Positions 18,084 to 34,471 of a stretch of DNA of 34,471 bases are shown here, one piece after another (position 1 is the stretch's first letter; every line of letters starts with the position of its first letter). The notes beneath the pieces were generated by a model. That model worked only from the letters and a program-made list of their open reading frames with translations, was not told the origin of the DNA and searched no databases. Where the stretch lies: assembly GCA_964577045.1 (NCBI GenBank), contig CAZNWL010000001.1, positions 1 through 34,471 on the forward strand. The letters run 5' to 3'. Made by a program: the position numbers and the translations under genes. Origin of the DNA: an uncultured Planctomycetia bacterium. Its GTDB lineage: Bacteria; Omnitrophota; Gorgyraeia; Duberdicusellales; 4484-171.

Positions 18084-18086
18084 ACT

Positions 18087-19073: not shown

Positions 19074-19167
19074 CCAAAATTCAAATGACCGAAACAATTA
19101 GTTTTTTTAATTTTGAAAATTTGAATTTGGAATTTATTTGTAATTTGGTGCTTGGAATTTGGAATTT
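19030..19167. repeat. AT-rich palindromic element built from 4 direct plus 4 inverted copies of AAATTC(C)AA, with a perfect 22-bp inverted-repeat core (19049-19070 / 19127-19148)
   Basis: Direct copies start at 19030, 19044, 19062 and 19077. Inverted copies lie at 19120-19128, 19127-19135, 19152-19160 and 19158-19167. The outer 10-mers at 19030-19039 and 19158-19167 are also perfectly complementary. A T7 run (19102-19108) lies near the centre of symmetry. Confidence 0.6.
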
Positions 19168-19184
19168 AAGGAGTAACAACACGA

Positions 19185-20497: not shown

Positions 20498-21466
20498 ATG
20501 CTTAAACAAAAACTACTAATCTGTGGGGTGTCGGGGTTTATAGGGAGAAATGTCGCCGAACAGTTCGCGAGACGGGGGGAATTTGAGATTACGGGGACGT
20601 ATTGGAAGGCGCCGGAGCCGAGAATCGCTGGCGTGAAGATGGTGAGGGTGGATTTGACCCGCAGAGAAGACGTAGAGAGAGTGGTGAGGGGGGTGGATGT
20701 GATTGTGCAGGCCGCGGCCACGACTTCGGGATCAAAGGAAATACTGGCAAAGCCCTATTACCATGTGACGGATAACGCTTTGATGAATTCGCTGATTTTC
20801 AGGGCGGCGTTTGAGCAGAAGGTAAAGCAGGTAGTGTTTTTCAGCTGCACAGTAATGTATCAGTCAAGCGAAAAGCCCCTGAAGGAAACGGATTTGGATT
20901 TAAACCAGCCCATGCACGAAAGCTATTTTGGCTCGGCCTGGACTAAACTTTACTTAGAGAAGCTTTGCGAGTTTTATTCTAAAATCAGCGCGACCAAATA
21001 CACGGTAGCCCGGCATTCCAATATCTACGGGCCTTATGATAAGTTTGATTTGGAGCGCTCGCATGTTTTCGGCGCGACCATCGCCAAAGTAATGGAAGCC
21101 CAGCAGGGCGGAAAAATCACGGTTTGGGGTTCAGGCGAAGAAGCCAGAGACCTTTTATATGTTTCGGACTTAGTTAATTTTGTGGAATTGGCTTTGCGAA
21201 AGCAAAAGGAAAAATTTGAAATATTCAATGTGGGTTTAGGCGAGGCGATTTCGGTAAAGGATTTAGTGAAAAAGATAATTGCTCTGTCCGGCAAAAAGCT
21301 GGCTATAGATTTTGACCGCGCCAAGCCCGCGATTAAAACTAAACTTTGCCTTAATTGCCAAAAGGCGCGGGAATTATTAGGCTGGAAGCCCGAAGTCTCT
21401 TTGGAGGATGGAATTAAAAATACGATTAAATGGTACGAAGCCAATAAAGAGAAGGTGAGAGTATGA
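20498..21466 (+). CDS. Divergent NAD-dependent epimerase/dehydratase-fold protein (extended SDR)
   Basis: CGVSGFIGRN, VFFSCTVMY and ARHSNIYGPYDKF are present. It is a paralogue of the 18087 gene. Confidence 0.7.
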   Translation: MLKQKLLICGVSGFIGRNVAEQFARRGEFEITGTYWKAPEPRIAGVKMVRVDLTRREDVERVVRGVDVIVQAAATTSGSKEILAKPYYHVTDNALMNSLIFRAAFEQKVKQVVFFSCTVMYQSSEKPLKETDLDLNQPMHESYFGSAWTKLYLEKLCEFYSKISATKYTVARHSNIYGPYDKFDLERSHVFGATIAKVMEAQQGGKITVWGSGEEARDLLYVSDLVNFVELALRKQKEKFEIFNVGLGEAISVKDLVKKIIALSGKKLAIDFDRAKPAIKTKLCLNCQKARELLGWKPEVSLEDGIKNTIKWYEANKEKVRV

Positions 21467-22533
21467 TTATCTCAAGGACTCCATTCAGGATTTCCTTTTT
21501 CGGCGGCGGCACAGATTATCCGGTCTGGTATAAGGAGAATGAAGGCGCGGTGATTTCCGCTTCCATTAACAAATATTGCTATATCACCTGCCGGTATTTG
21601 CCGCCCTTTTTCGGCTATAAATACCGCATTGTTTATTCGCAGAGAGAAGCCGTGTATGAGCTGAACGAGATTAAGCATCACTCGGTGAGAGAGTGCTTGC
21701 GCTTTATGGATTTAGCCAACGGAGTAGAAGTTCATCATGACGGCGATTTGCCGGCGCGCACCGGCCTCGGCTCAAGCTCAAGCTTTACGGTTGGGCTTTT
21801 AAACGCCTTATACGCTTTAAAAGGAAAAATGGTGACCAAAAAACAGCTGGCCATGGATGCGATAAAAGTAGAGCAGGAGATGATTAAGGAAAACGTCGGC
21901 TCGCAAGACCAGACCATTGCCGCTTTTGGCGGGTTTAATAAGATTACTTTCGGCCGCAATTACAACATTGAAGTCCAGCCTATTACTTTGGACTTTGATA
22001 AGTCCACGCATTTTCAAAAGCATTTGATGCTTTTCTTCACCGGATTTTCGCGCACGGCTTCGGAGATTGCCGGGGAGCAGATTAAAGAAACGGCTAATAA
22101 AACTAAAGAGCTGAAAGCGATGCATGCCATGGTTGAGGCGGCCGCGGATATTTTAAACCAGAGCCGCGATAACTTTGACGCCTTTGGCAAACTGCTGAAC
22201 GAAGCCTGGAAGATAAAGCGCAGCTTGACTTCCAAGATTTCCACTCCTTTTGTTGACGAGATTTACGAAACCGCTTTAAGAGCCGGAGCTTCCGGCGGAA
22301 AACTGCTCGGCGCTGGCGGCGGCGGGTTTATTCTGTTTTTCGTTAAGCCAGAGCGCCAGGCTAAAGTAAGAGCAGCTTTGCGCAAACTCCTTTATGTTCC
22401 TTTTGGCTTTGACACTTTAGGCAGCCAGATAATTTACTATGCGCCTGACCATCATACTTGGTGGGGCATGGATAACCAGCTGAAAACAGCCGAACAAGTG
22501 ATACAGGAAGATTCAACTATTACTGAACAATGA
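21463..22533 (+). CDS. GHMP-family sugar kinase (D-glycero-D-manno-heptose 7-phosphate kinase HddA-like)
   Basis: The GHMP ATP-binding motif PARTGLGSSSSFTVGLLNAL and a C-terminal GAGGGGF motif are present. The architecture matches the galactokinase/mevalonate-kinase-related kinases of GDP-heptose pathways. Confidence 0.7.
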   Translation: MIISRTPFRISFFGGGTDYPVWYKENEGAVISASINKYCYITCRYLPPFFGYKYRIVYSQREAVYELNEIKHHSVRECLRFMDLANGVEVHHDGDLPARTGLGSSSSFTVGLLNALYALKGKMVTKKQLAMDAIKVEQEMIKENVGSQDQTIAAFGGFNKITFGRNYNIEVQPITLDFDKSTHFQKHLMLFFTGFSRTASEIAGEQIKETANKTKELKAMHAMVEAAADILNQSRDNFDAFGKLLNEAWKIKRSLTSKISTPFVDEIYETALRAGASGGKLLGAGGGGFILFFVKPERQAKVRAALRKLLYVPFGFDTLGSQIIYYAPDHHTWWGMDNQLKTAEQVIQEDSTITEQ

Positions 22534-23240
22534 TAGCGCCAAAAACAACGGATGCGGTGATTCTTTGCGGGGGCAAGGGCGAGCGCTTGCAATCAGTGGT
22601 AAGCGATAAGCCCAAAGTTTTGGCGGAGGTGAATGGACAGCCGTTTTTAGAAATTTTGGTAGCTAACCTCAAACGTTTCGGCTTTCAGCGTTTTATTTTA
22701 AGCGTGGGCTATAAAAGAGAAGCCATCATTGATTATTTCAAAAACAGAAAGGAGATAGTTTTTTCCGAAGAAAAAACCGCGCTGGGCACGGGCGGCGGCT
22801 TAAAAAAAGCCCGCAGCCTGATTAAAAGCGATACGTTTCTTGCGCTGAACGGCGACTCTTTTTGCGCCTTGGATTTTAACGAGTTTTTCAGCTTTCATCA
22901 GCAGAAAAAATCCCTTTTAAGCATAGTTTTAACTAAAAGCTTGGAAGTTAAAGATTACGGAACCGTTACTTTAGATGATTCGGGAAGGATAAAAAGCTTT
23001 CAGGAGAAGATAGAGGGAAACAGCGTGCGCTTAGTAAATGCCGGCATTTATTTGATGCAAAAGGAGATTTTCAGCCAGATGCCGGAAAAGTCAGCTTTTT
23101 CTCTGGAATACGATTTTTTCCCTAAAGTAAAAAGCAGTTTTGGCTATATCACTTCAGCCAAACTTTATGATATCGGAACGCCAGAACGTTATCAGATATT
23201 TTTGGGGACAGGTCCCACTCGAATAGGCCCAGTAAAATAA
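22530..23240 (+). CDS. Sugar-1-phosphate nucleotidyltransferase (HddC-like guanylyltransferase)
   Basis: The N-terminal ILCGGKGERL...KPK.LAEVNGQPF signature is present and the 236-aa size fits. It is translationally coupled to the GHMP kinase (ATGA). Confidence 0.65.
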   Translation: MIAPKTTDAVILCGGKGERLQSVVSDKPKVLAEVNGQPFLEILVANLKRFGFQRFILSVGYKREAIIDYFKNRKEIVFSEEKTALGTGGGLKKARSLIKSDTFLALNGDSFCALDFNEFFSFHQQKKSLLSIVLTKSLEVKDYGTVTLDDSGRIKSFQEKIEGNSVRLVNAGIYLMQKEIFSQMPEKSAFSLEYDFFPKVKSSFGYITSAKLYDIGTPERYQIFLGTGPTRIGPVK

Positions 23241-23312
23241 GGCGCTATTCGCTGTGTTTTTCAAAAACTAGAAATAGGTTATATAGAGAAGAAAATTTCG
23301 AAAATTTGAAAA

Positions 23313-24569
23313 ATGGCTAAAAAAATTATTGATAACATTAGGTTTATAAAGCGGGACCTGTCCCCAAAAATGAAGATTCCGTTTGGCACGATTACAGTGA
23401 GCGAGAAGTCAAGGCAGCTGATTAACGCGGCTTTGGATGCAAACCGCCTTTCTTCGGGTAAATACGTGCGCGAGTTTGAAGAGAAGTTTGCCGCGCTGGT
23501 CGGGGTAAAAGAAGCCGTGGCAGTGGCCAGCGGCACTGATGCTTTGGCTTTGGCCTTGGCTGTGCTTTATGATTTCGGCGCCAGAAAAAACGATGAAGTA
23601 ATTATTCCGGCTTTGTCTTTTGTGGCTACGGGTAATGCGGTGCTGCAAGCCGGGTTTAAGCCGGTTTTCGTGGATGTGGATTTAAAAACTTTAAACATCA
23701 TCCCGGAAAAAATAGAAGCGGCAATCAGCGCGAAAACTCGGGCTATTCTTCCGGTACATTTGATGGGAAAGCCCGCGGCTATGGAGGCGATAAACCGCAT
23801 CGCTAAAAAGCGCAAGCTCTATGTGATTGAAGACGCGGCTGAAGCCCATGGCGCAGAATATAAAGGTAAGCGCGCCGGAAGCCTGGCTGATATGGGAGCT
23901 TTCAGCCTTTATGTGGCGCATATTATTACTACTGCCGAAGGCGGGATAGTCACTACTGATAATTCTGCATTCGCCGAAATCTTAAGGTCTTTGCGTTCAC
24001 ACGGCCGGGCTTGTAAATGCAGGAGCTGTGTGTTAAATACTGCCTCCAGTTTTTGCGACAAAAGATTCAAGCAGGGGAAAAATAAAGATATCCGCTTTAT
24101 CTTTGAGCGCATTGGTTTTTCCTGCAAAATGAATGAGCTGGAAGCAGCTATCGGCATCGGCAATTTAGACAACTATCAGCAAATTCTGGATAAAAGAAGG
24201 GCGAATTTGCTTTATTTAATCAATAAGTTTAAAGAGTTTCGGCCATATTTAACCACTATCTGCGAAGAGGCCGGCGAAAAAATCGGGCCGCATGCGTTTC
24301 CTTTTATCGTGGGTAAAAAGGCGAAGTTCAGCCGCGAAGAATTAAGCGGATTTTTAGAAAAGAGAGGAGTGGATACCCGCACTTTGTTTTCCTCAATCCC
24401 TACGCAATGCGCGGGATTTAAATTTTTAGGGCATAAGTTGGGGGATTTTCCTAATGCCGAATATATCGGAGAAAACGGCATACATATCGGGGTGCATCAG
24501 GATTTAAATAAGGGGCACATGGAATATTTTATTAACTTGATTCACGAATTTTTAAAAGCCAATGCCTAA
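23313..24569 (+). CDS. DegT-fold PMP-dependent NDP-4-keto-6-deoxy-sugar 3-dehydratase candidate (E1/RfbH/ColD-like)
   Basis: GAFSLYVAHIITTAEGG aligns residue for residue with GAFSFFPSKNLGAFGDGG of the upstream DegT. This places His203 (23919-23921) where the PLP lysine sits. A Cys cluster CKCRSCVLNTASSFCDKRF follows (24012-24056). Confidence 0.6.
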   Translation: MAKKIIDNIRFIKRDLSPKMKIPFGTITVSEKSRQLINAALDANRLSSGKYVREFEEKFAALVGVKEAVAVASGTDALALALAVLYDFGARKNDEVIIPALSFVATGNAVLQAGFKPVFVDVDLKTLNIIPEKIEAAISAKTRAILPVHLMGKPAAMEAINRIAKKRKLYVIEDAAEAHGAEYKGKRAGSLADMGAFSLYVAHIITTAEGGIVTTDNSAFAEILRSLRSHGRACKCRSCVLNTASSFCDKRFKQGKNKDIRFIFERIGFSCKMNELEAAIGIGNLDNYQQILDKRRANLLYLINKFKEFRPYLTTICEEAGEKIGPHAFPFIVGKKAKFSREELSGFLEKRGVDTRTLFSSIPTQCAGFKFLGHKLGDFPNAEYIGENGIHIGVHQDLNKGHMEYFINLIHEFLKANA

Positions 24570-26952
24570 AACTAAACACGCGATTATTCTCGGCGCCGGA
24601 GCAGTGGGCCTGGTTTCTGCCTGGAAGCTTTTGGATGAAGGCTTTAAGGTGGACATCTATGAAAAAGATAGCCAGGTTGGCGGAATGTGCAAGACCTGGA
24701 AGTGGAAAGAGTTTTTAGTGGATTGCGGCCCGCATATTTATCATACCCCCGATGAAAAATTAGCCGGATTCTGGGAGAAAGAGTTCGGCGACTTATTCGT
24801 GAAAGGGGATTTCTGGTGCAAAAACGTCAAAGGCGATAATTTTAACCAATACTGGGATTACCCGCTTTCCTGGGAAAGCATTTCCCGTTATCCTAAAAAG
24901 CTAAAAGACAAGGTTTTGTCTGAACTGCATAATATCAGCTTTGAAAAAAGAACGCAGGCGAAAAACTATACCGAATATATGGAGGCGCAAGTCGGCCAGA
25001 CTTTACGGGAGATGTTTTTTAAGCAGTTCCCGGAAAAAATCTGGGGCATTTCCACTGACACTATGGCTTGCGAATGGGCGCCTAAGCGCATTGAAGTGCG
25101 CCAGAAGGTCACGCCTTTTTACCACCGGCAGTGGAATGCCGTGGGTAAATTCGGAACCGGCTGTATTTTTGAGCGGATAAAAGAAAAAATTGAAAAATCC
25201 GGCGGGAAAATCCACCTTAACTGCGAAGTGAAAGGCTTTGAAACCAAAGGAAACTTGATTACCGCTGTCAAATTAACCGGAGGAAAAATCAGGAAAGTGG
25301 AACCCGAAGATGTGATAATTTCCAGCTTGCCGATTACTCTGCTGGCTAAATTTTTGGGCTATAACAGCAAGCTGAAGTTCAGGGCTTTGCGCACAGTTTA
25401 TTTAGCCTACGATAAGCCTATGATTCTGCCTCAAGGCATAGACTGGCTTTATTATGATTCGCCAAAAACTTATTTCAGCCGGATTACCGAGCCGAAAAAA
25501 CTTTCCAAAGCTTTAGCGCCTAAAAATAAAACTTACCTTAGCGCAGAAATAACCTGCGCCCAAGGCGATAAGATTTATCAAATGGATAAAAATAAACTGA
25601 TTAAAGAAACAGCCCGACAAGTGGAACTGGTGGGTTTGATAGAAGCAGGCCAGTTAAAAGAGGCAACAGTGCATACCGAAGATTATGTCTATCCTATTCA
25701 AGGCCGGGGCTATCAAGAGGAGCTTTCTAAAACCCGCGCGGTAATTACTAAATACCAACAGCTTTATTCTCTGGGCACCGGCGGAGAGTTCCACTATGCT
25801 GATATTCAGATAATCTTTCATAAAGTTTTTGACTTGGTAGCCGTACTTTGCGGGAAAGATTCAAAAATAAGCCAGACTATTCGTAAAACCCCGCGCTGCC
25901 AGCTGAATACAAGTATTTTTATCGGAAAGCGCGAGATAAGCGAAGCAAAGCCGGCTTATATCATTGCCGAAGCCGGCTTAAACCATAACCAGAGTCTAAC
26001 TATTGCCAAAAAGCTGATTGATGCGGCGAAAGAATCCGGAGCAGACAGCATCAAGTTTCAAAGTTTTAAGCCGGGCAGCCGCGTCTCTAAAAAAGTAAAA
26101 GCCGCGCGTTATGCCGAAACTATTATCGGCACCGAAGAAACTATCGCTGATATGTTTGACCGCTTGAGCTTAAGCTACGCCGACCAGAAAGAGCTTTTTA
26201 ACTACGCCCGTAAAACCGGCATAGAAATATTTTCCACTCCTTTTGATTTTGAAAGCGCTGACTTCTTAAACAGCTTAGGAGTGAATGTTTTTAAAATCGC
26301 TTCTATGGATTTGGTGAACCTGCCTTTGATTAAACATATCGCCGGCTTCGGCAAACCCATGATTCTTTCTACGGGCATGTCCACTTTAGGCCAGATCGAA
26401 GAAGCTTTAGAGACTATCCGCCAGCAGGGAAATCCCAACGTGGCTTTGCTGCATTGTAACTCGGCTTATCCGGCTGCGCCCGAAGAGATGAATTTAAAGG
26501 TGATAGATACTTTGAAGAGCTGTTTTAAAGTTCCGGTCGGGCTTTCTGACCATACTTTCGGCTTGGCAGTTTCCCATACGGCGCTGGCCTTAGGCGCGAA
26601 TTTAATCGAGCGGCATTTTACTTTGGATAGGGCAATGGAAGGCCCTGACCATATCTTATCTTCTACGCCCGAAGAGTTAGCAGAGCTGGTTTCTCTGGCT
26701 AAAAAAATCCCGCTGATTTTAGGCGACGGAATAAAACGCATCCAGCCTAATGAGTATGATACTTTGAATATGCAGCGAAAAAGCCTTTACGCCGCGCGCA
26801 ATATTAAAAAAGGCGCGGTGATTACTTCGGATATGATTGTCATTAAAGGCCCGGGAGGCGGTTTGTTACCGCGCTATTTAGAAGTAGTTACCGGAAGAGT
26901 GGCGCGCGCGGATATTGAAGAGGACCATCCGATTACCTGGGATGTGATTTAA
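24562..26952 (+). CDS. Fusion protein: N-terminal FAD-dependent oxidoreductase (amine-oxidase / UDP-galactopyranose-mutase-like fold, aa 1 to ~435) plus C-terminal NeuB-type ulosonic-acid synthase with a SAF domain (aa ~451-796, nt ~25912-26949)
   Basis: The N-terminus carries the dinucleotide motif ILGAGAVGL...DIYEKDSQVGG. The C-terminus carries YIIAEAGLNHNQS, KFQSF, FSTPFD, KIASMD, STGMS, LLHCNSAYPA, LSDHT and a SAF-like tail. It is one continuous 796-aa ORF. Confidence 0.8.
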   Translation: MPKTKHAIILGAGAVGLVSAWKLLDEGFKVDIYEKDSQVGGMCKTWKWKEFLVDCGPHIYHTPDEKLAGFWEKEFGDLFVKGDFWCKNVKGDNFNQYWDYPLSWESISRYPKKLKDKVLSELHNISFEKRTQAKNYTEYMEAQVGQTLREMFFKQFPEKIWGISTDTMACEWAPKRIEVRQKVTPFYHRQWNAVGKFGTGCIFERIKEKIEKSGGKIHLNCEVKGFETKGNLITAVKLTGGKIRKVEPEDVIISSLPITLLAKFLGYNSKLKFRALRTVYLAYDKPMILPQGIDWLYYDSPKTYFSRITEPKKLSKALAPKNKTYLSAEITCAQGDKIYQMDKNKLIKETARQVELVGLIEAGQLKEATVHTEDYVYPIQGRGYQEELSKTRAVITKYQQLYSLGTGGEFHYADIQIIFHKVFDLVAVLCGKDSKISQTIRKTPRCQLNTSIFIGKREISEAKPAYIIAEAGLNHNQSLTIAKKLIDAAKESGADSIKFQSFKPGSRVSKKVKAARYAETIIGTEETIADMFDRLSLSYADQKELFNYARKTGIEIFSTPFDFESADFLNSLGVNVFKIASMDLVNLPLIKHIAGFGKPMILSTGMSTLGQIEEALETIRQQGNPNVALLHCNSAYPAAPEEMNLKVIDTLKSCFKVPVGLSDHTFGLAVSHTALALGANLIERHFTLDRAMEGPDHILSSTPEELAELVSLAKKIPLILGDGIKRIQPNEYDTLNMQRKSLYAARNIKKGAVITSDMIVIKGPGGGLLPRYLEVVTGRVARADIEEDHPITWDVI

Positions 26953-28011: not shown

Positions 28012-28722
28012 ATGAAAACAGCGATAGTTACCGGTTGTGCAGGTCAGTTAGGCAGAGTTTTTACGGAAAAGCTTTTAGCTTTAGGGTATGAGGTGATAGG
28101 TTTTGACCTTACAGATAAAACTCAAAATGAGCGGATTGCTTATTATAAAGTAGATGTCAGCAAACCTACGCAAATCAGCAAAGCTTTAGCTAAAGTTAAT
28201 CAAGCTGACCTTTTACTGAATAATGCCGGAAGTTTTATCTTTACTCCTCTTGAAGAAAGGACAGAGGAAGAGCTGGATTCTTTAATTGATTCCCACCTTA
28301 AGGGAACGATTTTTATGACCCGGGAAGTTTTCACCCGCTTTTTTAAGCCGAATAAAAAAGGCTGTATTGTCAATATCGGCTCTATCTACGGAGTAGTCGC
28401 GGCAGATATGAGTATTTACCGCGATGGCGACCGCCGGGCTCCGGAGATTTACGGCGCAGTGAAAGCGGCAATCATTAACCTGACCAAATATTTCGCCAGC
28501 TACATGGCTGCTTATAATGTGCGGGTGAACTGCATTTCGCCGGGCGGAATTTTTAACCATCAGGATCCGGATTTCGTAAAAAAATATTCGGCGAAAGTGC
28601 CTTTAAAGAGGATGGGCAAGGATAAAGAGCTCACCAGCACCTTAGAATATTTAATTTCCGATGATTCCGGTTATTTAACCGGACAGAATATTATAGTGGA
28701 TGGGGGATTAACCTTATGGTAA
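28012..28722 (+). CDS. Classical short-chain dehydrogenase/reductase
   Basis: VTGCAGQLG, NNAG, YGAVK (YxxxK) and a C-terminal GQNIIVDGG motif are present. Confidence 0.75.
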   Translation: MKTAIVTGCAGQLGRVFTEKLLALGYEVIGFDLTDKTQNERIAYYKVDVSKPTQISKALAKVNQADLLLNNAGSFIFTPLEERTEEELDSLIDSHLKGTIFMTREVFTRFFKPNKKGCIVNIGSIYGVVAADMSIYRDGDRRAPEIYGAVKAAIINLTKYFASYMAAYNVRVNCISPGGIFNHQDPDFVKKYSAKVPLKRMGKDKELTSTLEYLISDDSGYLTGQNIIVDGGLTLW

Positions 28723-30530
28723 TGAAGCACTTTGGGTTTATTAAAAAATACTGGTGGTTGTTTGTGCTGATGATTAGCGCGGGATTAGTGGCTTCCCTCT
28801 TAGAAGGCCTGGGCGTTACTTTGATTATTCCGGTAGTAAAGGGGCCGCAAGTTTCAGACCTATCGCAAATACCTGCACCCTTAAACCAGCTGGTTAAACT
28901 TTTTATCGGTCTGGATTTAAGCCAGCGGCTTAAACTGGCAGCCTTGCTTTTGATCGCCATCTCTTTAGTGAAAGGCATCATGCTTTATATTAACGAGGTA
29001 TCGTCAGGTAAGATGATGGTTATTTCTGAAAAGCATTTCCGCATGCTTTGCCTGCGCCAGCTGATGCGCACTGGCATGAGTTATTTTACCAAGCAGAAAG
29101 GCTCGGATATACATACTATCTGCGACTTCTACGTAAGAAATTTCGGCTCCTTAGTCAATATCATTGGTTTAGATTTACCCAAAGTTTTTCAGGTGATTGT
29201 TCTTTTCGTCATCATGCTTTTACTTTCTTGGAAGATAACCTTTCTTTCGGTGGGGCTTTTGGCCATCGCTTCTTTGATTTTGCGCTTTTTAGCGGTGCGC
29301 ATTCAAAAGATGGGTAAAAAATTCGCCGAGGCCAATAAAACTATCAACGCCGCTATTTTTGACGCTATTTTAGGGATGAAAGTCATCCGGATTTTCAACC
29401 GCGAAAAGGAAACCATTAATAATTTCGAAAAAGAGCAGGACAATTTAAACAGCATCCATATGAAGATGGTGGGAATCCGTTCTATTGTCAAACCTTTGTT
29501 TGAATTTATCGGTTCAGCCTGCCTGGGGATTATTATGATTGTTTGGTCTTATTTAGTCTTACGTTCAAGCAACATGGGATTAGAATTTCTTTTTGCTTTT
29601 ATCCTTATCTTTTACCGGATTTCCACGCCGGTAATGTACATTAACCATTCTAGGGTGGCAATTATGGGAGATGTGGCTTCATATAAGGAAGTTTTTAATT
29701 TTCTCAAGAGTGAGGACAAGAATTATTTAGCTAACGGCAAAAAAGAGTTTAAAGGCTTAAAAGATTCTTTGGAGTTTAAAGGAGTAAGTTTTAACTATGA
29801 ACCGGGTTTGCCCTTAGTGTTGAAAGACGCCTCTTTCACCATCAAACGGGGGATGAAAGTAGGCTTTGTCGGCGCATCCGGAGCCGGCAAATCCACGATT
29901 ACCGAGTTGCTTTTACGTTTTTATGACCCGCAAAAGGGAGAAATTGTTGTGGATGGGGTTAATTTGAAAGAGTTCAGAGTAGAGTCCTGGCGCAAACATA
30001 TCGGCATAGTTTCACAGGAGATATTTTTGTTTAATGATACGGTCAGGAATAATATTGCTTACGCTAAAGACGAAGCAACCAGCCAGGGCGTGGAGTTTGC
30101 CGCAAAAATGGCCCATGCCGAGCAGTTCATTAAGGAACTGCCCGCGGGTTTTGATACTTTAATCGGCGACCGGGGAGTACTTTTATCCGGCGGTCAGCGC
30201 CAGAGATTGGCCATTGCCCGGGCAATTATCAATAAGCCCGACATCCTGATTTTTGACGAGGCCACTTCGGCCTTGGATTCAGAGTCGGAAAAAATAGTGC
30301 AGGAGGCTTTAGATGAAGTCGGCCAGGGCCGGACAGTGATTGCCATTGCCCACCGGCTTTCTACGGTGTTTGACGCTGACCTGATTTTAGTTATTGATAA
30401 AGGAAAGATTATGGAGCAGGGAACGCACGAACAGTTAAAAACCAGGAGCGAAATTTATAAGCGGCTGTTATCCATGCAGGGGTATTTCGACGAAACTTTT
30501 AAGGCCGAAGAACCAGAAATAGTGGCTTAA
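28716..30530 (+). CDS. ABC exporter with fused transmembrane and ATPase domains (MsbA/PglK type)
   Basis: A hydrophobic N-terminal half is followed by Walker A (GASGAGKST), the ABC signature (LSGGQRQR), Walker B (ILIFDEATSALD) and an H-loop (IAHRLST). Confidence 0.85.
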   Translation: MVMKHFGFIKKYWWLFVLMISAGLVASLLEGLGVTLIIPVVKGPQVSDLSQIPAPLNQLVKLFIGLDLSQRLKLAALLLIAISLVKGIMLYINEVSSGKMMVISEKHFRMLCLRQLMRTGMSYFTKQKGSDIHTICDFYVRNFGSLVNIIGLDLPKVFQVIVLFVIMLLLSWKITFLSVGLLAIASLILRFLAVRIQKMGKKFAEANKTINAAIFDAILGMKVIRIFNREKETINNFEKEQDNLNSIHMKMVGIRSIVKPLFEFIGSACLGIIMIVWSYLVLRSSNMGLEFLFAFILIFYRISTPVMYINHSRVAIMGDVASYKEVFNFLKSEDKNYLANGKKEFKGLKDSLEFKGVSFNYEPGLPLVLKDASFTIKRGMKVGFVGASGAGKSTITELLLRFYDPQKGEIVVDGVNLKEFRVESWRKHIGIVSQEIFLFNDTVRNNIAYAKDEATSQGVEFAAKMAHAEQFIKELPAGFDTLIGDRGVLLSGGQRQRLAIARAIINKPDILIFDEATSALDSESEKIVQEALDEVGQGRTVIAIAHRLSTVFDADLILVIDKGKIMEQGTHEQLKTRSEIYKRLLSMQGYFDETFKAEEPEIVA

Positions 30531-30533
30531 GCT

Positions 30534-31832
30534 ATGGAAAATAAGCAGAAAGCGCGGATTTTGATGTATTGCGGAAACGGCTATTCTTTCAGCGAATACT
30601 TTAAGCCGCTTATTGAGGAATTGGCTGATGATTGTGAGATAGAGCTGCTTCAGGGCGACTATCATCTTGGCCAGACAACCAAAGGGTTAATCCAAGAATT
30701 AACCGCCAAAAATAACTTTGCTTACCAGATTATACCGGTATTTACCTGGAACAGGTCAGTTTTAGAATATCACCGTAGCATGGCGCAATTAACAAACAAC
30801 TTAAAGGATAAACCCTTTGATTTATTCGTAGTCAGCAGTGATTCCAGTTTAACTGACCGCTATTTAGTTGATTTAGCCAAGTCTTTAGGGGCTAAAGTGG
30901 TCGTGATTTATGCCAGCGTATTTTTTGTGAAACTTTTTAATCTTTATAGAAAGCTTATAGGAGTTGATAAAAAATCCTATCTGGAAAAAGCTAAAGACAA
31001 AGTAGCGACAGTTAAAAATATGAAGCAAAGGAAGGTTTCGTTTTTAAATTATTTCTGGTGGCGGGTTAAATGGTTAAAAGAAAAAATAGCTAAGGACTTT
31101 AAAATTTTTATGAATTACTATATCCTGCCCTATATTTTTTCAAGGAGAACCTTTCCTCGGAATAAATATGATACCTTTAGCCATGTTTCTGGTCGCGCAG
31201 ACACATTTATTTGTTATAATTTTAGGGAAGCGGATGCGATAAGAAAAGTAGTTATTCCGGCTAAAGATGTGCGTTTGGCAAAACATCCGGCTGTTTTATA
31301 TTGCCGCAGCCCTAAAGAGGCAACCCGCAAACTGCTATTGCTTTTGGGGGATCAGGTTGACGAATTACGTGATGACCAGATTAGTTTTTGGGTTGAGGTT
31401 ATAAAAGAAGCAGTTAAGGCGGAAGGTTTAAATGAGGTTCATTTTCGTTTTCATCCCCGTACAGATAAAAATCTTCCTCAACCTAAGAAATTAATAGCTT
31501 CTGTGGCAAAGCTTAATTTAAAGACAGAGATAATTGATGCCAATACAGTGCCTTTAGTCCAAATCTTAGGTGATTATCTCGGTGTAATTGGCGTACTTTC
31601 CGGCTCCTTACGTACAGCCAGGGCTGTATCCAAAGGTTTTGTTATCGGGTTGCTGGATGCTTGTGGGAATTTTCCTGATGAAGATTGGATGTTAGGAGAT
31701 CCCGAAGGCATTATTTGGATTCGTAATGGCCAAAAGATACAAGCCGAGCATTTTGCTGTGCCGCCGCTTTACGGTGAGGATAGGCCGAAGGTATCGGAGA
31801 TACTAAAAGAATTAGTATGCAGTCAACGATAA
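30534..31832 (+). CDS. Hypothetical protein, 432 aa; possibly a two-Rossmann-domain (GT-B-like) surface-carbohydrate transferase
   Basis: It is a long ORF in the operon frame context. By eye it shows alternating beta-alpha character in both halves, with no diagnostic motif. Its position between the exporter and a cytidylyltransferase is the only functional hint. Confidence 0.3.
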   Translation: MENKQKARILMYCGNGYSFSEYFKPLIEELADDCEIELLQGDYHLGQTTKGLIQELTAKNNFAYQIIPVFTWNRSVLEYHRSMAQLTNNLKDKPFDLFVVSSDSSLTDRYLVDLAKSLGAKVVVIYASVFFVKLFNLYRKLIGVDKKSYLEKAKDKVATVKNMKQRKVSFLNYFWWRVKWLKEKIAKDFKIFMNYYILPYIFSRRTFPRNKYDTFSHVSGRADTFICYNFREADAIRKVVIPAKDVRLAKHPAVLYCRSPKEATRKLLLLLGDQVDELRDDQISFWVEVIKEAVKAEGLNEVHFRFHPRTDKNLPQPKKLIASVAKLNLKTEIIDANTVPLVQILGDYLGVIGVLSGSLRTARAVSKGFVIGLLDACGNFPDEDWMLGDPEGIIWIRNGQKIQAEHFAVPPLYGEDRPKVSEILKELVCSQR

Positions 31833-32617
31833 GAAAAGGAAAAATCGCCGCGATTATTCAAGCCCGGATGGGCTCAACCCGCTTGCCGGGAAAAATCCTG
31901 ATGGAGGTAAACTATCGTCCGCTATTGGATTATATGGTGGAGCGGGTAAAAAGGAGCAAATATATCAAGCAGGTGATTATCGCTACCACTGTTTCTCACC
32001 AAGACCAGCCGATAGTTGACTGGTGCAAAGCTAATCAGGTGGAATTCTGCCGCGGCGATGAGGAAGATGTTTTGGCCCGTTATTACTATGCTGCCAAGGA
32101 GTTTAAAGTTTCCGTAATCGTGAGAGTTACTTCAGACTGCCCGTTAATGGATCCGGAAGTTATTGATAAAACCATTGAGGCTTTTCTTGGCGATTCGCAT
32201 CTCGATTTTGCCTCAAGTACTACGCCGCTGCCTTGTTTATATCCTGACGGCATGGACGTGGATGTTTTTAATTTTAACCTTTTAGAGAAAACTCATTACG
32301 AAGCCAAACTTCCTTCGGAAAGAGAGCATGTAACCTTTTATATGTGGAAGACTGGAAAATTTAAAGTGAAAAGAATCGACCCTAAAGAGGATTTGTCTTC
32401 TTATCGTTTTTGCATTGACTATCCTCAAGATTTTACCGTGATACAGGAAGTGTTGACTAAACTTTACCCAAAAAATCCTAAGTTTTCCGTGTATGAATTG
32501 ATAGATTTTATGAAAGCTAACCCCCGGCTTTTAGCCTTGCAGAAAGGCATTAAGCGCAATGCCGGCTGGCAAAGGGCTTTGGATAAAGACTTAAAATATT
32601 TGGAGCAAAACAAATGA
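31817..32617 (+). CDS. SpsF-like cytidylyltransferase (CMP-ulosonic-acid synthetase family)
   Basis: KIAAIIQARMGSTRLPGK.L, the VIIATT motif and RVTSDCPL are typical of the SpsF/NeuA-like cytidylyltransferase family. Confidence 0.75.
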   Translation: MQSTIRKGKIAAIIQARMGSTRLPGKILMEVNYRPLLDYMVERVKRSKYIKQVIIATTVSHQDQPIVDWCKANQVEFCRGDEEDVLARYYYAAKEFKVSVIVRVTSDCPLMDPEVIDKTIEAFLGDSHLDFASSTTPLPCLYPDGMDVDVFNFNLLEKTHYEAKLPSEREHVTFYMWKTGKFKVKRIDPKEDLSSYRFCIDYPQDFTVIQEVLTKLYPKNPKFSVYELIDFMKANPRLLALQKGIKRNAGWQRALDKDLKYLEQNK

Positions 32618-34471
32618 AACCGCCAAAAAAGAGTTTAGCTTTACAGGAAAAAGGAAAAAAGTTTATTCCCGGCTTAACCCAGCTTCTTTCTAAAAGGCCT
32701 GACCAGTTTGCTCCCGGGCTTTGGCCGGGATATTTTGAAAAAGCCAAAGGCATAGAAGTCTGGGATTTGGACGGAAACCGTTATCTGGATATGAGTATCA
32801 GCGGCATCGGAGCAGTAATTTTAGGTTATTGTGATCCTGATGTGGATAAGGCAGTTAGAGAAGTAATCAAGAAAGGCAATTTTTCTTCGCTCAATTGCCC
32901 GGAAGAAGTCGAACTTGCAGAGTTACTTTGCGAAATCCATCCCTGGGCGAAGCTTGTGCGTTATGGCCGCGGCGGCGGAGAAGTTATGGCTATTGCCGTG
33001 CGCATTGCCCGCGCCTTTACTGGCCGCGATAAAATAGCTTTTTGTTATGACGAAACAACAGAAATACTCACAAGAGATGGTTTTAAAAGAATCAAAGATA
33101 TAGATAAACAAGAAGTAGTAGCTACTCTCAATCCCACTACAAATCAATTAGAATACAAACAGATTGAAAGAAAGCTGAGGTATCGCTTTTCAGGGAAAAT
33201 GATACATTTCAAAGGGCAAAGGGTTGATTTAATGGTGACTCCTGAACATAAAATATATAGGAAGTTTCGCTTAAGAAAGGGTTATCATTTTAAATTAGTG
33301 GAAGCCAGAAGTGCTTTAAGATCTAAAGTAATGACTCAAATGACTTCTGTATGTGAGTGGAAAGGTGAAGTTAAGAAAGAGATTGTTATTCCTCAAATAG
33401 TTGGTCAAACTCGGCCAACAAAGGGCATTTGTTCATTTTCCGCGAAAGCTTTTGTTAGATTTATGGGTTGGTACTTATCCGAGGGTTGTTGCGTGGAACA
33501 GAAGAGAAGGAGATATGAAGTAAGTATAGCTCAAGATAGAAAGAATTTCAATAAGAGCAGGGAAATATTCTCAACGATTAGAAAATTGGGATTTGCTCCT
33601 TACCGGAACGGGCATCATATTTGTTTTAGCTCTAAAGAGTTGGTGCAATATTTAAAACAATTTGGAAAGTGCAAAGATAAGTATATTCCAGATTGGATAA
33701 AAAATTTGTCCACTAACTATATTTCTATTTTTGTAGACGCTATGATAAAAGGAGATGGCACTTTTGAGAAAGGTAAAATACGCAAATTCTATTCTACCTC
33801 TAAAAGATTGATAGATGGTATGCAAGAGATATTATTGAAAATTGGTTATTCTACCACAGTTTCAGAGCACACCAACATTGGATTTTCTAAAGATAAAGTA
33901 TATCATTTATATATAAGTAAGGAGAATATTTTAGGAAGTTGGCCAGAAGAGGAATATTACGATGGTTACGTATATTGCGTAACTGTGCCTAACCATATCG
34001 TTCTCGTGAGACGAAATGGAAAATTAGCCTGGTCAGGAAATTGCGGCTACCACGGTTGGTGTGACTGGTATTTAGCCGCTAATTTAAGTTCGGATAAGTC
34101 GCTGGAGGGGCACCTGTTACCGGGATTAGAGCCACGGGGTGTCCCCAGAGGCTTATTGGGGACGGCTTTGCCGTTTCGTTACAACAATATAGAAGAGTTG
34201 GAAAAGATTGTTCGGAATACTAAAGGCAATTTGGCAGCAATCGTGATGGAGCCGATTAGAAACGACCCCCCCCAGAAAGGATTTTTAGAGGCCGTGCGTA
34301 AAATTGCCGATAAAACCGGCGCGGTTTTAATTTTTGATGAGGTATCTTGCGGCTTTCGGATGAATTCCGGCGGCGCGCATCTTTTATTCGGCGTTACGCC
34401 GGATATCGCTGCTTTTGCTAAAGGCATGAGCAACGGTTATCCGATGGGAGCAGTCATAGGCAGAGAAAAGG
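32614..34471 (+). CDS. Class-III (glutamate-1-semialdehyde aminomutase-like) PLP aminotransferase precursor interrupted by an intein; the 3' end lies outside the window. It is not in the supplied ORF track.
   Basis: I translated this frame by hand and it is open from the ATG at 32614 (ATGA overlap with the upstream stop) to nt 34471. The N-extein carries GIEVWDLDGNRYLD and ends RAFTGRDKIAF. The C-extein resumes CGYHGW and carries AAIVMEPI, LIFDEV..GFR and the PLP lysine motif AFAKGMSNGYP. Confidence 0.85.
   Translation, partial: MKPPKKSLALQEKGKKFIPGLTQLLSKRPDQFAPGLWPGYFEKAKGIEVWDLDGNRYLDMSISGIGAVILGYCDPDVDKAVREVIKKGNFSSLNCPEEVELAELLCEIHPWAKLVRYGRGGGEVMAIAVRIARAFTGRDKIAFCYDETTEILTRDGFKRIKDIDKQEVVATLNPTTNQLEYKQIERKLRYRFSGKMIHFKGQRVDLMVTPEHKIYRKFRLRKGYHFKLVEARSALRSKVMTQMTSVCEWKGEVKKEIVIPQIVGQTRPTKGICSFSAKAFVRFMGWYLSEGCCVEQKRRRYEVSIAQDRKNFNKSREIFSTIRKLGFAPYRNGHHICFSSKELVQYLKQFGKCKDKYIPDWIKNLSTNYISIFVDAMIKGDGTFEKGKIRKFYSTSKRLIDGMQEILLKIGYSTTVSEHTNIGFSKDKVYHLYISKENILGSWPEEEYYDGYVYCVTVPNHIVLVRRNGKLAWSGNCGYHGWCDWYLAANLSSDKSLEGHLLPGLEPRGVPRGLLGTALPFRYNNIEELEKIVRNTKGNLAAIVMEPIRNDPPQKGFLEAVRKIADKTGAVLIFDEVSCGFRMNSGGAHLLFGVTPDIAAFAKGMSNGYPMGAVIGREK
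33043..34041 (+). mobile_element. Intein (333 aa) with a LAGLIDADG homing-endonuclease domain, inserted in the class-III aminotransferase
   Basis: It starts CYDETTEILT and has a TxxH block (LMVTPEH). The dodecapeptide motifs are MGWYLSEGC and IFVDAMIKGDGT. It ends LVRRNGKLAWSGN, followed by Cys at +1. The insert is AT-rich: I counted 17/60 GC at 33241-33300 versus 38/60 at 32941-33000. Confidence 0.85.

What the first reader, a model, noticed from the sequence alone, without database searches (positions are those of the whole stretch)
24562..26952. Single-polypeptide fusion of an FAD oxidoreductase and a NeuB-type ulosonic-acid synthase
One uninterrupted 796-aa ORF joins two domains. The first is a ~435-aa FAD/NAD(P)-binding oxidoreductase (GxGxxG...E...GG; amine-oxidase / galactopyranose-mutase-like). 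The second is a complete NeuB-like PEP-condensing synthase with a SAF domain, carrying AEAGLNHNQS, KFQSF, KIASMD, HCNSAYP and SDHT.

Sialic, legionaminic and pseudaminic acid synthases are normally stand-alone proteins of about 340 aa. The fusion implies channelling between a flavin-dependent step and the aldol-type condensation. The flavin step could be oxidation of a sugar or amino sugar to the aldehyde/keto acceptor, or a ring contraction.

Downstream lie an unassigned dehydrogenase, an SDR, an SpsF-like cytidylyltransferase and a class-III aminotransferase. Together these look like a non-canonical nonulosonic or octulosonic acid pathway. It lacks the usual 2-epimerase/hydrolase and N-acetyltransferase genes, at least within this window.
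Basis: partly seen in the sequence, partly recalled or inferred. Interest (0 to 1): 0.65.

Follow-up and report, generated by a model that had tools for sequence, protein, structure and literature searches.

The report
UGM-like flavoenzyme fused to NeuB synthase
This is a real, widespread but uncharacterised two-domain enzyme that joins a UDP-galactopyranose-mutase-like flavin domain to a sialic-acid-type synthase, and it probably starts an undescribed route to a CMP-activated acidic sugar in environmental bacteria.

Summary
The 796-aa ORF at 24562-26952 is real. It has no stops, and an identical copy sits in an independent JGI assembly. Unitigs from three freshwater metagenomes cross the domain junction without indels. 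More than 600 full-length (~795 aa) relatives at 59-77% identity occur in many phyla.

The N-terminal half is not a generic oxidoreductase. By profile and by fold (TM 0.81) it belongs to the UDP-galactopyranose mutase (UGM) family. It keeps the His loop, both essential diphosphate-binding arginines, the uridine-stacking Trp and the active-site tyrosines.

The C-terminal half keeps all metal, PEP and catalytic residues of NeuB. However, the Arg (NmNeuB Arg314) that holds the N-acetyl group of ManNAc is invariably Gly.

The gene is translationally coupled to a novel NAD(P) dehydrogenase found beside it in 10 of 11 loci. It travels with a cytidylyltransferase, an SDR, an aminotransferase, a glycosyltransferase-like unknown and an ABC exporter. 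No NeuC/LegG/PseG-type hydrolase appears in any context.

My favoured, inferred mechanism is that reduced flavin displaces the nucleotide from an NDP-sugar and hands the aldose to the synthase. I found no literature on this. I rate it a new variant of a known kind, of moderate to high interest.

The parts
24562..26952 (+). Fusion gene, 796 aa: UGM-like flavin domain, fixed linker, NeuB TIM barrel, SAF domain
   Evidence: The ORF is confirmed and its domains. There are 606 homologues with the same architecture. Its start overlaps the upstream gene by 8 nt (ATGCCTAA), and its stop abuts the next start (TAAATG).
24562..25866 (+). N-terminal domain (residues 1-435): FAD-binding, UDP-galactopyranose-mutase-family fold
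   Evidence: The AF2 model has pLDDT 92.5. Foldseek top hits are UGMs: 4dsg at E 1.3e-27 and TM 0.81, and 3ukk at TM 0.82. The profile against PDB gives 4dsg at 4e-29 over the full length and KpUGM at 1.4e-28. Conserved residues are G11xG13xxG16, E34, G40-G41, G56-P57-H58 (His loop), F152-F153...K159...W161, R176, R307, Y377 and Y412/D414.
25867..25956 (+). Inter-domain linker (residues 436-465), of constant length and moderately conserved
   Evidence: In the 28-sequence alignment this stretch is almost gap-free (one- or two-residue gaps only), with mean column identity 0.5-0.7. Independent unitigs cross it without differences.
25957..26736 (+). NeuB-type PEP-condensing TIM barrel (residues 466-725)
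   Evidence: Pfam NeuB scores 5e-90. TIGR03569 scores 382 bits against a cut-off of 399.65. The mapping onto NmNeuB from the alignment is: E470, K498, Q500, T559, K578, S581, D583 (for E134), S603, Y636, S662, H664, E683, H685, D696. All are invariant in the family.
26779..26946 (+). SAF / antifreeze-like domain (residues 740-795). The position of NmNeuB Arg314 is Gly763 (nt 26848-26850) in the invariant motif K-G-P-G-G-G.
   Evidence: Pfam SAF scores 8e-11. K762, G763, P764 and G766 are invariant and G765 nearly so. The role of Arg314 is described in PMC11339185.
26953..28008 (+). DH351: a novel two-domain NAD(P)-binding dehydrogenase and the obligate genomic partner of the fusion
   Evidence: It lies next to the fusion in 10 of 11 loci, mostly at 53-76% identity. 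It has 431 homologues, all unnamed or 'NAD(P)-binding domain-containing protein'. The AF2 model has pLDDT 93.1. No close PDB fold was found: TM is at most 0.45, with DpaA, MtdA and 2-hydroxyacid or amino-acid dehydrogenases as the nearest.
28012..28722 (+). Short-chain dehydrogenase/reductase (236 aa)
   Evidence: Pfam adh_short_C2 scores 6e-34, and NCBIfam gives PRK09186 plus a weak PtmA-like match. It is conserved in L001, L005, L009 and L010 at 53-75% identity.
28716..30530 (+). Fused TMD-NBD ABC exporter (HepA/MsbA/PglK-like)
   Evidence: Identified. It is present in 7 of 11 loci.
30534..31832 (+). 432-aa unknown protein, a candidate sialyltransferase-like glycosyltransferase
   Evidence: It has no Pfam or PDB match. 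It is homologous to L006 19072-20376 (2e-25) and is present in L003, L009 and L010. The N-terminus is weakly similar to the 450-aa protein of L005, which hits PF07388 polysialyltransferase at 24.1 bits against a cut-off of 23.3.
31817..32617 (+). CTP_transf_3 cytidylyltransferase (KdsB/NeuA family, divergent)
   Evidence: Pfam scores 1.2e-28, but the protein is below all NCBIfam cut-offs. It is present in 9 of 11 loci. In L001, L003, L006, L007 and L008 it is fused to a second, SAF-less NeuB domain.
32614..34471 (+). Class-III aminotransferase (runs off the window), interrupted by a LAGLIDADG intein at residues 144-476
   Evidence: Pfam gives Aminotran_3 plus LAGLIDADG_3. The sequence reads KIAF|CYDETT...WSGN|CGYHGW. 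The L009 orthologue is 86% identical.
21463..24569 (+). Upstream genes shared only with close relatives: a GHMP sugar kinase (21463-22533), a sugar-1-P nucleotidyltransferase (22530-23240), and an E1/ColD-like PMP 3-dehydrase (23313-24569)
   Evidence: Identified. The DegT-family protein best matches the PDB 3-dehydrases 3bcx and ColD. It has His in place of the catalytic Lys, plus a Cys cluster. These genes are present in L001, L003, L004, L006 and L009, and absent from L005, L007, L008, L010 and L011.

Best explanation
The gene encodes a bifunctional enzyme that starts a conserved, undescribed CMP-ulosonic-acid pathway.

Shown:
- The N-domain is an FAD-binding member of the UDP-galactopyranose mutase family. 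It has an intact nucleotide-diphosphate and uridine pocket next to the flavin.
- The C-domain is a catalytically complete NeuB-type synthase that condenses PEP with an aldose. Its acceptor pocket lacks the N-acetyl-binding arginine.
- The two domains are joined by a fixed linker.
- The gene is translationally coupled to a novel NAD(P) dehydrogenase.

Inferred mechanism:
1. The reduced flavin N5 attacks C1 of a UDP- or NDP-sugar and expels the nucleotide, as in UGM.
2. Instead of re-closing to a furanose, the acyclic flavin-iminium is hydrolysed.
3. This delivers the open-chain aldose directly to the NeuB active site, which condenses it with PEP to a 3-deoxy-2-ulosonic acid.

On this reading the flavin domain replaces the NeuC/LegG/PseG hydrolase of canonical pathways.

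Inferred downstream steps:
- DH351, the SDR and an aminotransferase tailor the acid.
- The cytidylyltransferase activates it.
- The 432-aa glycosyltransferase-like protein transfers it.
- The ABC exporter moves the glycoconjugate.
For: - The architecture is real and ancient. There are 606 homologues. In the exhaustive search with the N-domain, essentially every complete hit above ~215 bits is 780-830 aa, that is, fused. Rare split forms keep NeuB and DH351 adjacent.
- UGM membership of the N-domain rests. The residue map is as follows.
  - KpUGM H60/H63 correspond to H58/H61, within an identical GPHIxHT motif.
  - W160 corresponds to W161.
  - FFKxYTxKxWG corresponds to FFKQFPEKIWG.
  - R174 corresponds to R176, and R280 (YTRITEHK) to R307 (FSRITEPK).
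  - Y314 corresponds to Y377, and Y349/D351 to Y412/D414.
  - All of these are invariant or nearly so.
- The NeuB machinery is intact but Arg314 is Gly763 in every member. The role of Arg314 is documented in PMC11339185.
- No Epimerase_2 (NeuC/LegG) or PseG-type gene occurs in the window or in L001-L013.
- In L010 the module begins directly at the fusion, with no sugar-nucleotide genes upstream. That context implies a common NDP-sugar substrate.
- In the window, L006 and L009, a sugar kinase and a nucleotidyltransferase lie just upstream. They lie directly upstream in L006; a DegT-family gene intervenes in the window and L009.
- The linker is conserved and of constant length, and the genes are tightly coupled.
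- From established knowledge: UGM catalysis passes through a covalent flavin-sugar adduct and an acyclic iminium, and NeuB acts on the open-chain aldehyde.
Against: - No biochemical data exist for any member.
- The hydrolytic outcome is an inference. No UGM-family enzyme is known to act as a net nucleotide-sugar hydrolase.
- The protein scores far below the UGM equivalog cut-off (53.6 against 303.75 bits).
- Two UGM residues differ. KpUGM Y185 is an invariant Phe here, and R343 is Thr.
- The fold is shared with protoporphyrinogen and amine oxidases (TM 0.71-0.75), so redox chemistry is not excluded.
- Some loci carry a second NeuB domain fused to the cytidylyltransferase. This complicates the assignment of which synthase makes the activated acid.
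- The absence of Arg314 also occurs in animal Neu5Ac-9-P synthases, so a phosphorylated acceptor is possible.
- I could not measure the distance between the two active sites.
Confidence: 0.4

Rival explanations
1. The N-domain is a true pyranose/furanose mutase. It makes an NDP-furanose donor for the same glycan, and the NeuB domain independently makes the ulosonic acid from a free or phosphorylated sugar. On this reading the fusion only ensures co-expression or complex formation.
For: All UGM substrate-binding residues are kept and the fold is UGM. Every characterised member of the family is a mutase (established knowledge). The window is a very large glycan locus with many other sugar-nucleotide enzymes.
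Against: - The fusion is near-obligate across deep divergence, and the linker is fixed. Both fit functional coupling better than co-expression.
- No furanosyltransferase-like gene is recognisable in the conserved module.
- A free-sugar source for NeuB (a NeuC/LegG/PseG type or a phosphatase) is missing in all 13 contexts.
- The score is far below the UGM equivalog cut-off.
Confidence: 0.2
2. This is the first reader's reading: the N-domain is a redox flavoenzyme (oxidase or dehydrogenase). It oxidises a sugar alcohol, an amino sugar or a sugar position to create the aldehyde or keto acceptor, or it works with DH351 as an oxidation-reduction (epimerisation) pair. The NeuB domain then condenses the acceptor with PEP.
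For: Pfam Amino_oxidase matches at 2e-15. Protoporphyrinogen oxidases are the next-best folds (TM 0.71-0.75). A dedicated NAD(P) dehydrogenase is always adjacent. The wider PRK07208-like family is uncharacterised, and some remote members are fused to lipid-linked-sugar membrane domains (GtrA, LPG_synthase_TM).
Against: UGMs beat the oxidases in profile searches by about 15 or more orders of magnitude (UGM 4e-29, against the nearest desaturase at 6.5e-14 and protoporphyrinogen oxidase at 1.2e-10). The two arginines, the His loop and the uridine-binding motif that define the UGM nucleotide-sugar site are invariant, which an oxidase of free sugars would not need.
Confidence: 0.15
3. The N-domain acts after the synthase. 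It isomerises the ring form of the free or CMP-activated ulosonic acid, for example from pyranose to furanose.
For: The cytidylyltransferase is part of the core module. A nucleotide-binding pocket is conserved in the N-domain.
Against: The anomeric carbon of a CMP-ulosonate is quaternary, and the leaving group is a monophosphate. The conserved Arg pair matches a diphosphate binder. No precedent exists.
Confidence: 0.08
4. The single ORF is an artefact: a mis-assembly or frameshift has merged two genes.
For: Two low-coverage contigs show split forms (L012, L013).
Against: There is an independent identical assembly. Unitigs from three runs cross the junction cleanly. Hundreds of full-length homologues exist in many phyla, including a RefSeq isolate protein.
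Confidence: 0.01

Closest known systems
Bacterial nonulosonic acid synthases: NeuB (N. meningitidis, 1XUZ), PseI (8H2C), SpsE (1VLI), LegI
   Same: The C-terminal 330 residues align end to end with them (E 7e-56 to 8e-50). The fold is a TIM barrel plus a SAF domain. The metal ligands (H664, H685), the PEP-binding Lys and Ser residues, and the catalytic Glu/Asp residues are conserved.
   Different: - It is fused to a 435-aa flavin domain.
- Arg314 is replaced by an invariant Gly, and Asn74 is not kept.
- Glu134 is replaced by Asp, and Asn184 by Ser.
- It scores below the NeuB (382 against 399.65) and PseI (307 against 340) equivalog cut-offs.
- No hydrolysing epimerase, PseG or N-acetyltransferase accompanies it.
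UDP-galactopyranose mutase (Glf/UGM; e.g. K. pneumoniae 3GF4, T. cruzi 4DSG, A. fumigatus 3UKK) and its relatives, such as C. jejuni UNGM (4MO2)
   Same: UGMs are the best structural and profile matches. The FAD Rossmann motif, the His loop, both essential Arg residues, the uridine-stacking Trp and helix motif, and two active-site Tyr residues are conserved.
   Different: Identity is only 15-19%. The score is far below the UGM equivalog cut-off. KpUGM Y185 is Phe here, and R343 is Thr. It is fused to a synthase, and its activity is unknown.
PRK07208-type 'hypothetical' FAD-dependent oxidoreductases (NCBIfam NF005547/NF005548), stand-alone proteins of 430-480 aa in glycan loci
   Same: These are the closest sequence family for the N-domain (216 bits). 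They are 25-32% identical over the full length. One tested member (P0173) keeps the UGM-like residues.
   Different: The score is below the family cut-offs (216 against 380). These relatives are not fused to NeuB. Some are fused to GtrA, LPG_synthase_TM or EamA membrane domains instead. None is characterised, to my knowledge.
Kdo8N pathway of Shewanella (KdnB oxidase plus KdnA DegT-type aminotransferase, PDB 5K8B)
   Same: It offers a precedent for amination after the ulosonic acid has been made. The module here carries dehydrogenases plus an aminotransferase, without NDP-sugar 4,6-dehydratase logic in some loci.
   Different: The enzymes are different: a NeuB-type synthase rather than KdsA, and a novel DH351 rather than a metal-dependent alcohol dehydrogenase. 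This is an analogy only.

Membership tests
NeuB / nonulosonic acid synthase (PF03102 + PF08666) | NeuB TIM-barrel domain followed by a SAF (antifreeze-like) domain | tested here: met
   Pfam NeuB scores 301.5 bits over model positions 1-241 of 241, and SAF scores 42.7 bits. Both exceed their cut-offs.
NeuB / nonulosonic acid synthase | Metal ligands His215 and His236, and PEP-binding Lys53, Lys129, Ser132, Ser154 and Ser213 | tested here: met
   The counterparts H664, H685, K498, K578, S581, S603 and S662 come from the alignment. All are invariant in the 28 members.
NeuB / nonulosonic acid synthase | Catalytic Glu25, Glu134 and Glu234 | tested here: inconclusive
   E470 and E683 are kept, but Glu134 is an invariant Asp583. 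The same E134D change is reported in archaeal, eukaryotic and many environmental synthases (PMC8208679).
Bacterial Neu5Ac synthase (NeuS) specifically | Arg314 from the SAF domain contacting the N-acetyl group, and Asn74 contacting C6-OH of ManNAc | tested here: not met
   Arg314 is replaced by Gly763, invariant within KGPGGG. Asn74 is replaced by Thr524, which is variable. The roles of both residues are given in PMC11339185.
NCBIfam equivalogs TIGR03569 (NeuB_NnaB) and TIGR03586 (PseI) | Score above the curated cut-off | tested here: not met
   The scores are 382.3 against 399.65 and 306.6 against 340.25.
UDP-galactopyranose mutase family (PF03275 GLF) | Three-domain UGM fold with an FAD Rossmann motif (GxGxxG...E...GG) | tested here: met
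   The AF2 model has pLDDT 92.5. TM is 0.81-0.82 to eukaryotic UGMs and 0.83-0.87 (target-normalised) to bacterial UGMs. Pfam GLF scores 36.0 against a cut-off of 26.3. G11, G13, G16, E34, G40 and G41 are conserved.
UDP-galactopyranose mutase family | Two essential arginines that bind the UDP diphosphate (KpUGM R174 and R280) | tested here: met
   The counterparts R176 and R307 are invariant and aligned.
UDP-galactopyranose mutase family | Histidine loop at the flavin N5 (KpUGM P59-H60; TcUGM G60-G61-H62) | tested here: met
   G56-P57-H58 is invariant, and the motif GPHIxHT is identical to that of bacterial UGM.
UDP-galactopyranose mutase family | Uridine pocket (KpUGM F151, F152, Y155, T156, W160) and the phosphate- and sugar-binding tyrosines (Y185, Y314, Y349) | tested here: inconclusive
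   F152, F153, W161, Y377 and Y412 are conserved. The Y155 position is F156 here (the family consensus is Y). Y185 is an invariant F186.
UDP-galactopyranose mutase (NCBIfam TIGR00031 equivalog) | Score above the curated cut-off, and pyranose/furanose mutase activity | tested here: not met
   The score is 53.6 against 303.75 bits. Activity cannot be tested with these tools.
Flavin amine oxidase (PF01593) | Pfam match, and a redox-active site acting on amines | tested here: inconclusive
   The Pfam score is 57.4 against a cut-off of 19.8, but the model covers a broad superfold. Amine oxidases match only the dinucleotide-binding N-terminus in profile searches. Catalytic residues were not tested.
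Canonical NulO pathway (Neu, Leg or Pse) | Co-located NDP-sugar hydrolase or 2-epimerase (NeuC/LegG PF02350, or PseG) and an N-acetyltransferase | tested here: not met
   None was found in the window or in L001-L013. Only about ±10 kb around each gene was examined.

The most novel reading that the evidence does not exclude
A UGM-family flavoenzyme has been repurposed from ring contraction to 'unmasking' a nucleotide sugar. Covalent flavin catalysis releases the nucleotide and passes the acyclic aldose, across a fixed interface, to a fused PEP-condensing synthase.

Together with a fold-novel NAD(P) dehydrogenase, this would define a third logic for making sialic-acid-like sugars. There would be no hydrolysing epimerase or nucleotidase, and possibly late-stage amination. 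It would yield an as yet undescribed CMP-ulosonic acid (C8-C10) on the surfaces of Omnitrophota, Marinimicrobia, Bdellovibrionota, Magnetococcales and other environmental bacteria.
Probability: 0.3. Interest if true: 0.8.

Novelty: new variant of a known kind. Interest (0 to 1): 0.6.

Why it matters
Sialic-acid-like sugars shape cell surfaces, phage and predator recognition, and biofilm matrices. All three textbook bacterial routes begin by hydrolysing a nucleotide sugar with a NeuC/LegG/PseG-type enzyme.

This protein family is large, with hundreds of sequence clusters across many phyla in freshwater and marine metagenomes. It shows a different, strictly conserved solution in which a UGM-like flavin domain is welded to the synthase and paired with an unknown dehydrogenase.

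If the proposed hand-over mechanism holds, three things follow:
- It adds a new reaction outcome to the small set of non-redox flavoenzymes.
- It explains how these organisms make an acidic sugar without the usual genes.
- It warns that current annotation ('N-acetylneuraminate synthase family protein', 'legionaminate synthase') predicts the wrong product, because the N-acetyl-binding arginine is absent.

A cultured host is available for direct tests: Halobacteriovorax sp. HLS, WP_127717834.1.

Tried and rejected
- The assembly or frameshift artefact reading was tested and rejected.
- The 'generic amine oxidase' reading was considered. It ranks below UGM because the profile and fold rankings and the UGM-specific residues favour UGM.
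- The genome-contig scan with the single protein returned only 3 loci, because the patterns were too specific. I obtained contexts through the look-up of encoding contigs instead. One look-up (P0089) found no record, and one (P0173) returned genes but no DNA.
- Four literature searches and targeted reading found no description of a NeuB-flavoenzyme fusion. The large NulO-synthase phylogeny paper (PMC8208679) does not mention fusions.
- A structure search for DH351 gave no informative close relative. A sequence search of the PDB for the 432-aa unknown found nothing.
- I first assumed the upstream DegT-family protein was the pathway's aminotransferase. It has His in place of the Schiff-base Lys and is E1/ColD-like, and it is not part of the conserved core.
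- I did not model the full-length protein.

Full report
**1. The observation**

An ATG-to-TAA ORF of 796 codons occupies 24562-26952 on the + strand. Pfam places NAD_binding_8 (9-72), Amino_oxidase (16-358) and GLF (152-345) in the first ~435 residues. It places a full-length NeuB domain (485-725, 5e-90) and a SAF domain (740-795) in the rest.

Three independent lines settle it:
- The identical protein, with identical neighbours, is on a separately assembled 9.6-kb JGI contig (L004).
- Logan unitigs from three freshwater metagenome runs of three different studies tile the gene. Two of them cross the junction (25760-26015 and 25778-25928) with no mismatch or gap, and no indel is seen anywhere in 24400-27100.
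- 606 database proteins match. Nearly all of the best 120 are ~790-820 aa with the same domains and 59-77% identity over 95-100% of the length. They are labelled Omnitrophota, Margulisiibacteriota, Marinimicrobia, Thermodesulfobacteriota, Magnetococcales, Gammaproteobacteria and Halobacteriovorax sp. HLS (WP_127717834.1, an isolate), plus one bin labelled Nitrososphaerales.

The closest named relatives (75-77%) are Omnitrophota, so the window is probably from a freshwater Omnitrophota genome.

**2. The N-terminal domain is a UGM-family flavin domain, and it is not degenerate**

Conservation across 28 members is as high in the N-half as in the C-half. The 30-residue linker is almost free of gaps, of essentially constant length, and moderately conserved.

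An AlphaFold model of residues 1-440 is confident (pLDDT 92.5, pTM 0.90). Its best PDB matches are UDP-galactopyranose mutases:
- T. cruzi 4DSG: E 1.3e-27, TM 0.81.
- A. fumigatus: TM 0.82.
- Bacterial UGMs: target-normalised TM 0.83-0.87.
- Protoporphyrinogen oxidases come next, at TM 0.71-0.75.

A profile of the N-domain alone finds 4DSG over its full length (4e-29) and K. pneumoniae UGM (1.4e-28). The nearest desaturase scores 6.5e-14, and protoporphyrinogen and amine oxidases score 1e-10 or worse. These match only the dinucleotide-binding start.

Reading the printed alignments against the family's invariant columns gives this map:

| KpUGM residue or motif | Fusion residue or motif |
|---|---|
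| P59-H60...H63 (GPHIFHT) | P57-H58...H61 (GPHIYHT) |
| FFKGYTIKQW(160)G | FFKQFPEKIW(161)G |
| R174 | R176 |
| R280 (YTRITEHK) | R307 (FSRITEPK) |
| Y314 (YYP) | Y377 (VYP) |
| Y349/D351 | Y412/D414 |

Two positions differ: KpUGM Y185 is an invariant Phe186 here, and R343 is Thr406. That R174 and R280 are the essential diphosphate binders and that the His loop sits at flavin N5 is established UGM knowledge, which I recalled from memory. The alignment itself is a tool result.

The domain therefore has what it needs to hold a nucleotide-diphospho-sugar against a flavin. It is not a UGM orthologue by score (TIGR00031: 53.6 against 303.75). Its nearest sequence family is the uncharacterised PRK07208 group (216 bits, also below cut-off).

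**3. The fusion is near-obligate**

An exhaustive HMMER search of 1.84 billion representatives with the N-domain found 4538 relatives. Essentially every complete protein scoring above ~215 bits (about 30% identity or more) is 780-830 aa, meaning fused. Stand-alone proteins of 425-485 aa begin only at 25-32% identity.

Two rare split forms, both on low-coverage contigs, still have NeuB and the partner dehydrogenase as immediate neighbours (L012, L013). Remote relatives are sometimes fused to GtrA, LPG_synthase_TM or EamA membrane domains. This links the wider family to glycan assembly.

**4. The synthase half is competent but not canonical**

It aligns end to end with SpsE, PseI and N. meningitidis NeuB.

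These positions are kept, using NmNeuB numbering (4IPI index minus 2): E25→E470, K53→K498, Q55→Q500, T110→T559, K129→K578, S132→S581, S154→S603, Y186→Y636, S213→S662, H215→H664, E234→E683, H236→H685, D247→D696. All are invariant.

The differences are:
- E134→D583. This change is common in environmental, archaeal and eukaryotic synthases (PMC8208679).
- N184→S634.
- N74→T524, which is variable in the family.
- R314→G763, within an invariant K-G-P-G-G-G motif. This is the most telling difference.

Arg314 contacts the N-acetyl carbonyl of ManNAc. It is reported as completely conserved in bacterial NeuS enzymes with the antifreeze-like domain and as essential, and it is absent from animal Neu5Ac-9-P synthases (PMC11339185). 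SpsE and PseI also have Arg at that position.

The protein falls just below the NeuB/LegI equivalog cut-off (382 against 399.65) and below the PseI cut-off. The database names 'N-acetylneuraminate synthase' and 'N,N'-diacetyllegionaminate synthase' are therefore unlikely to describe the product.

**5. Genomic context**

The fusion's start overlaps the upstream stop by 8 nt (ATGCCTAA). Its stop is followed immediately by the start of the next gene (TAAATG).

That next gene, DH351 (26953-28008), lies next to the fusion in 10 of 11 related loci, mostly at 53-76% identity. Its confident model (pLDDT 93) has no close PDB relative. TM is at most 0.45, and only the two-domain NAD(P) architecture resembles DpaA, MtdA and the 2-hydroxyacid or amino-acid dehydrogenases.

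A CTP_transf_3 cytidylyltransferase is present in 9 of 11 loci. Two module variants emerge:
- **Variant A** (window, L009, L010, L005): fusion, DH351, SDR, a short cytidylyltransferase, an aminotransferase, a ~430-aa unknown and an MsbA/HepA/PglK-like ABC exporter. The aminotransferase is Lys-type DegT in L005 and L010, and class III in the window and L009.
- **Variant B** (L001, L003, L006, L007, L008): fusion, DH351, a SAF-less NeuB domain fused to the cytidylyltransferase, and often an asparagine-synthase-like amidotransferase.

The 432-aa unknown of the window is homologous to its counterparts in L006, L009, L010 and L003. The similarly placed L005 protein is only weakly similar at its N-terminus, and it touches the polysialyltransferase model PF07388 at 24.1 bits against a 23.3 cut-off. 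This is a weak hint that it is the transferase.

A sugar kinase and a nucleotidyltransferase (HddA/HddC-like, well below cut-offs) precede the fusion only in the window's closer relatives. In L010 the module starts directly at the fusion, after unrelated housekeeping genes.

In none of the contexts examined (the window plus L001-L013, about ±10 kb each) is there a PF02350 NeuC/LegG-type epimerase/hydrolase or a PseG-type nucleotidase.

**6. Mechanism**

Shown:
- A nucleotide-sugar-type pocket sits on a flavin.
- A complete PEP-condensing site lacks the N-acetyl clamp.
- The two are rigidly joined and always accompanied by a novel dehydrogenase and usually by a CMP-transferase.
- The hydrolase that normally frees the sugar is missing.

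Inferred (about 0.4): reduced flavin N5 displaces the nucleotide as in UGM. The acyclic flavin-iminium is hydrolysed instead of re-closing. The open-chain aldose, which is the form NeuB uses, is handed to the synthase. DH351, the SDR and the aminotransferase then tailor the acid. Kdo8N biosynthesis in Shewanella is a precedent for late amination. The acid is then CMP-activated, transferred and exported.

Rivals:
- A genuine mutase making a furanose donor, co-fused for stoichiometry (about 0.2).
- Action on the ulosonate or its CMP ester (about 0.08).
- Artefact (about 0.01).

The sugar's identity is open. The loss of Arg314 argues against a 2-acetamido acceptor bound in the NeuB manner and leaves a non-acetylated or phosphorylated acceptor possible. 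The second NeuB domain in variant B is unexplained.

**7. Novelty**

The architecture is visible in databases under automatic names. Four full-text searches and targeted reading found no paper describing or testing it.

It is best called a new variant of a known kind. It is a NeuB-type synthase pathway with a UGM-family front end and a fold-novel dehydrogenase partner. The finding is interesting because the module is widespread and strictly conserved, and because it yields a sharp, testable mechanistic hypothesis in a culturable organism.

Noticed in passing
window 8303-10363 (+): The dTDP-glucose 4,6-dehydratase-like gene (686 aa) is interrupted by a ~364-aa intein with LAGLIDADG-type blocks (residues 126-489). 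The intein sits inside the catalytic motif, which reads ...FVHIS|CYDETT...FCGN|TDEVYG.
   Followed up: partly
window 32614-34471 (+), and L009 18157-20475: The class-III aminotransferase carries a second intein (residues 144-476, Pfam LAGLIDADG_3). It begins with the same CYDETT sequence as the dehydratase intein, so two related inteins sit in one glycan locus. The L009 orthologue has one too.
   Followed up: partly
window 23313-24569 (+): This DegT-family protein has His in place of the Schiff-base Lys (VAHIITTAEGG) and a CxCxxC...C cluster. Its best PDB matches are the E1 and ColD 3-dehydrases. It is therefore a PMP-dependent 3-deoxygenase and not an aminotransferase, which implies a 3,6-dideoxy-type sugar is made in the same locus.
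   Followed up: partly
window 3387-5276 (+): A fused ATP sulfurylase and APS kinase (PAPS synthesis) sits inside the glycan locus. The Halobacteriovorax locus L005 also has PAPS genes plus a sulfotransferase next to the module. This hints at a sulfated glycan.
   Followed up: no
window 12252-14314 and 16113-20495 (+): TPP-dependent E1 alpha/beta (transketolase-like) subunits and two B12-binding radical SAM enzymes are interleaved with SDR epimerases. Similar sets occur in L003, L006 and L009. This suggests C-branching or C-methylation of sugars.
   Followed up: no
L001 8275-10029; L003 13506-15263; L006 13472-15223; L007 8068-9840; L008 7484-9256: A second fusion recurs just downstream of DH351: a SAF-less NeuB domain joined to a CTP_transf_3 cytidylyltransferase (583-590 aa). 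These loci therefore carry two NeuB domains. The role of the second is unexplained.
   Followed up: partly
proteins P0260, P0289, P0288 (remote relatives of the N-domain): Stand-alone PRK07208/UGM-like flavoproteins are fused to LPG_synthase_TM, GtrA/DPMS or EamA membrane domains. This suggests the wider family acts on lipid-linked or nucleotide sugars at the membrane.
   Followed up: no
window 5405-5815 (+) and L010 9438-10022: A small winged-helix (HTH_24/MarR_2) protein lies in the window's locus, and a similar one lies immediately upstream of the fusion in L010. It may be a dedicated regulator.
   Followed up: no
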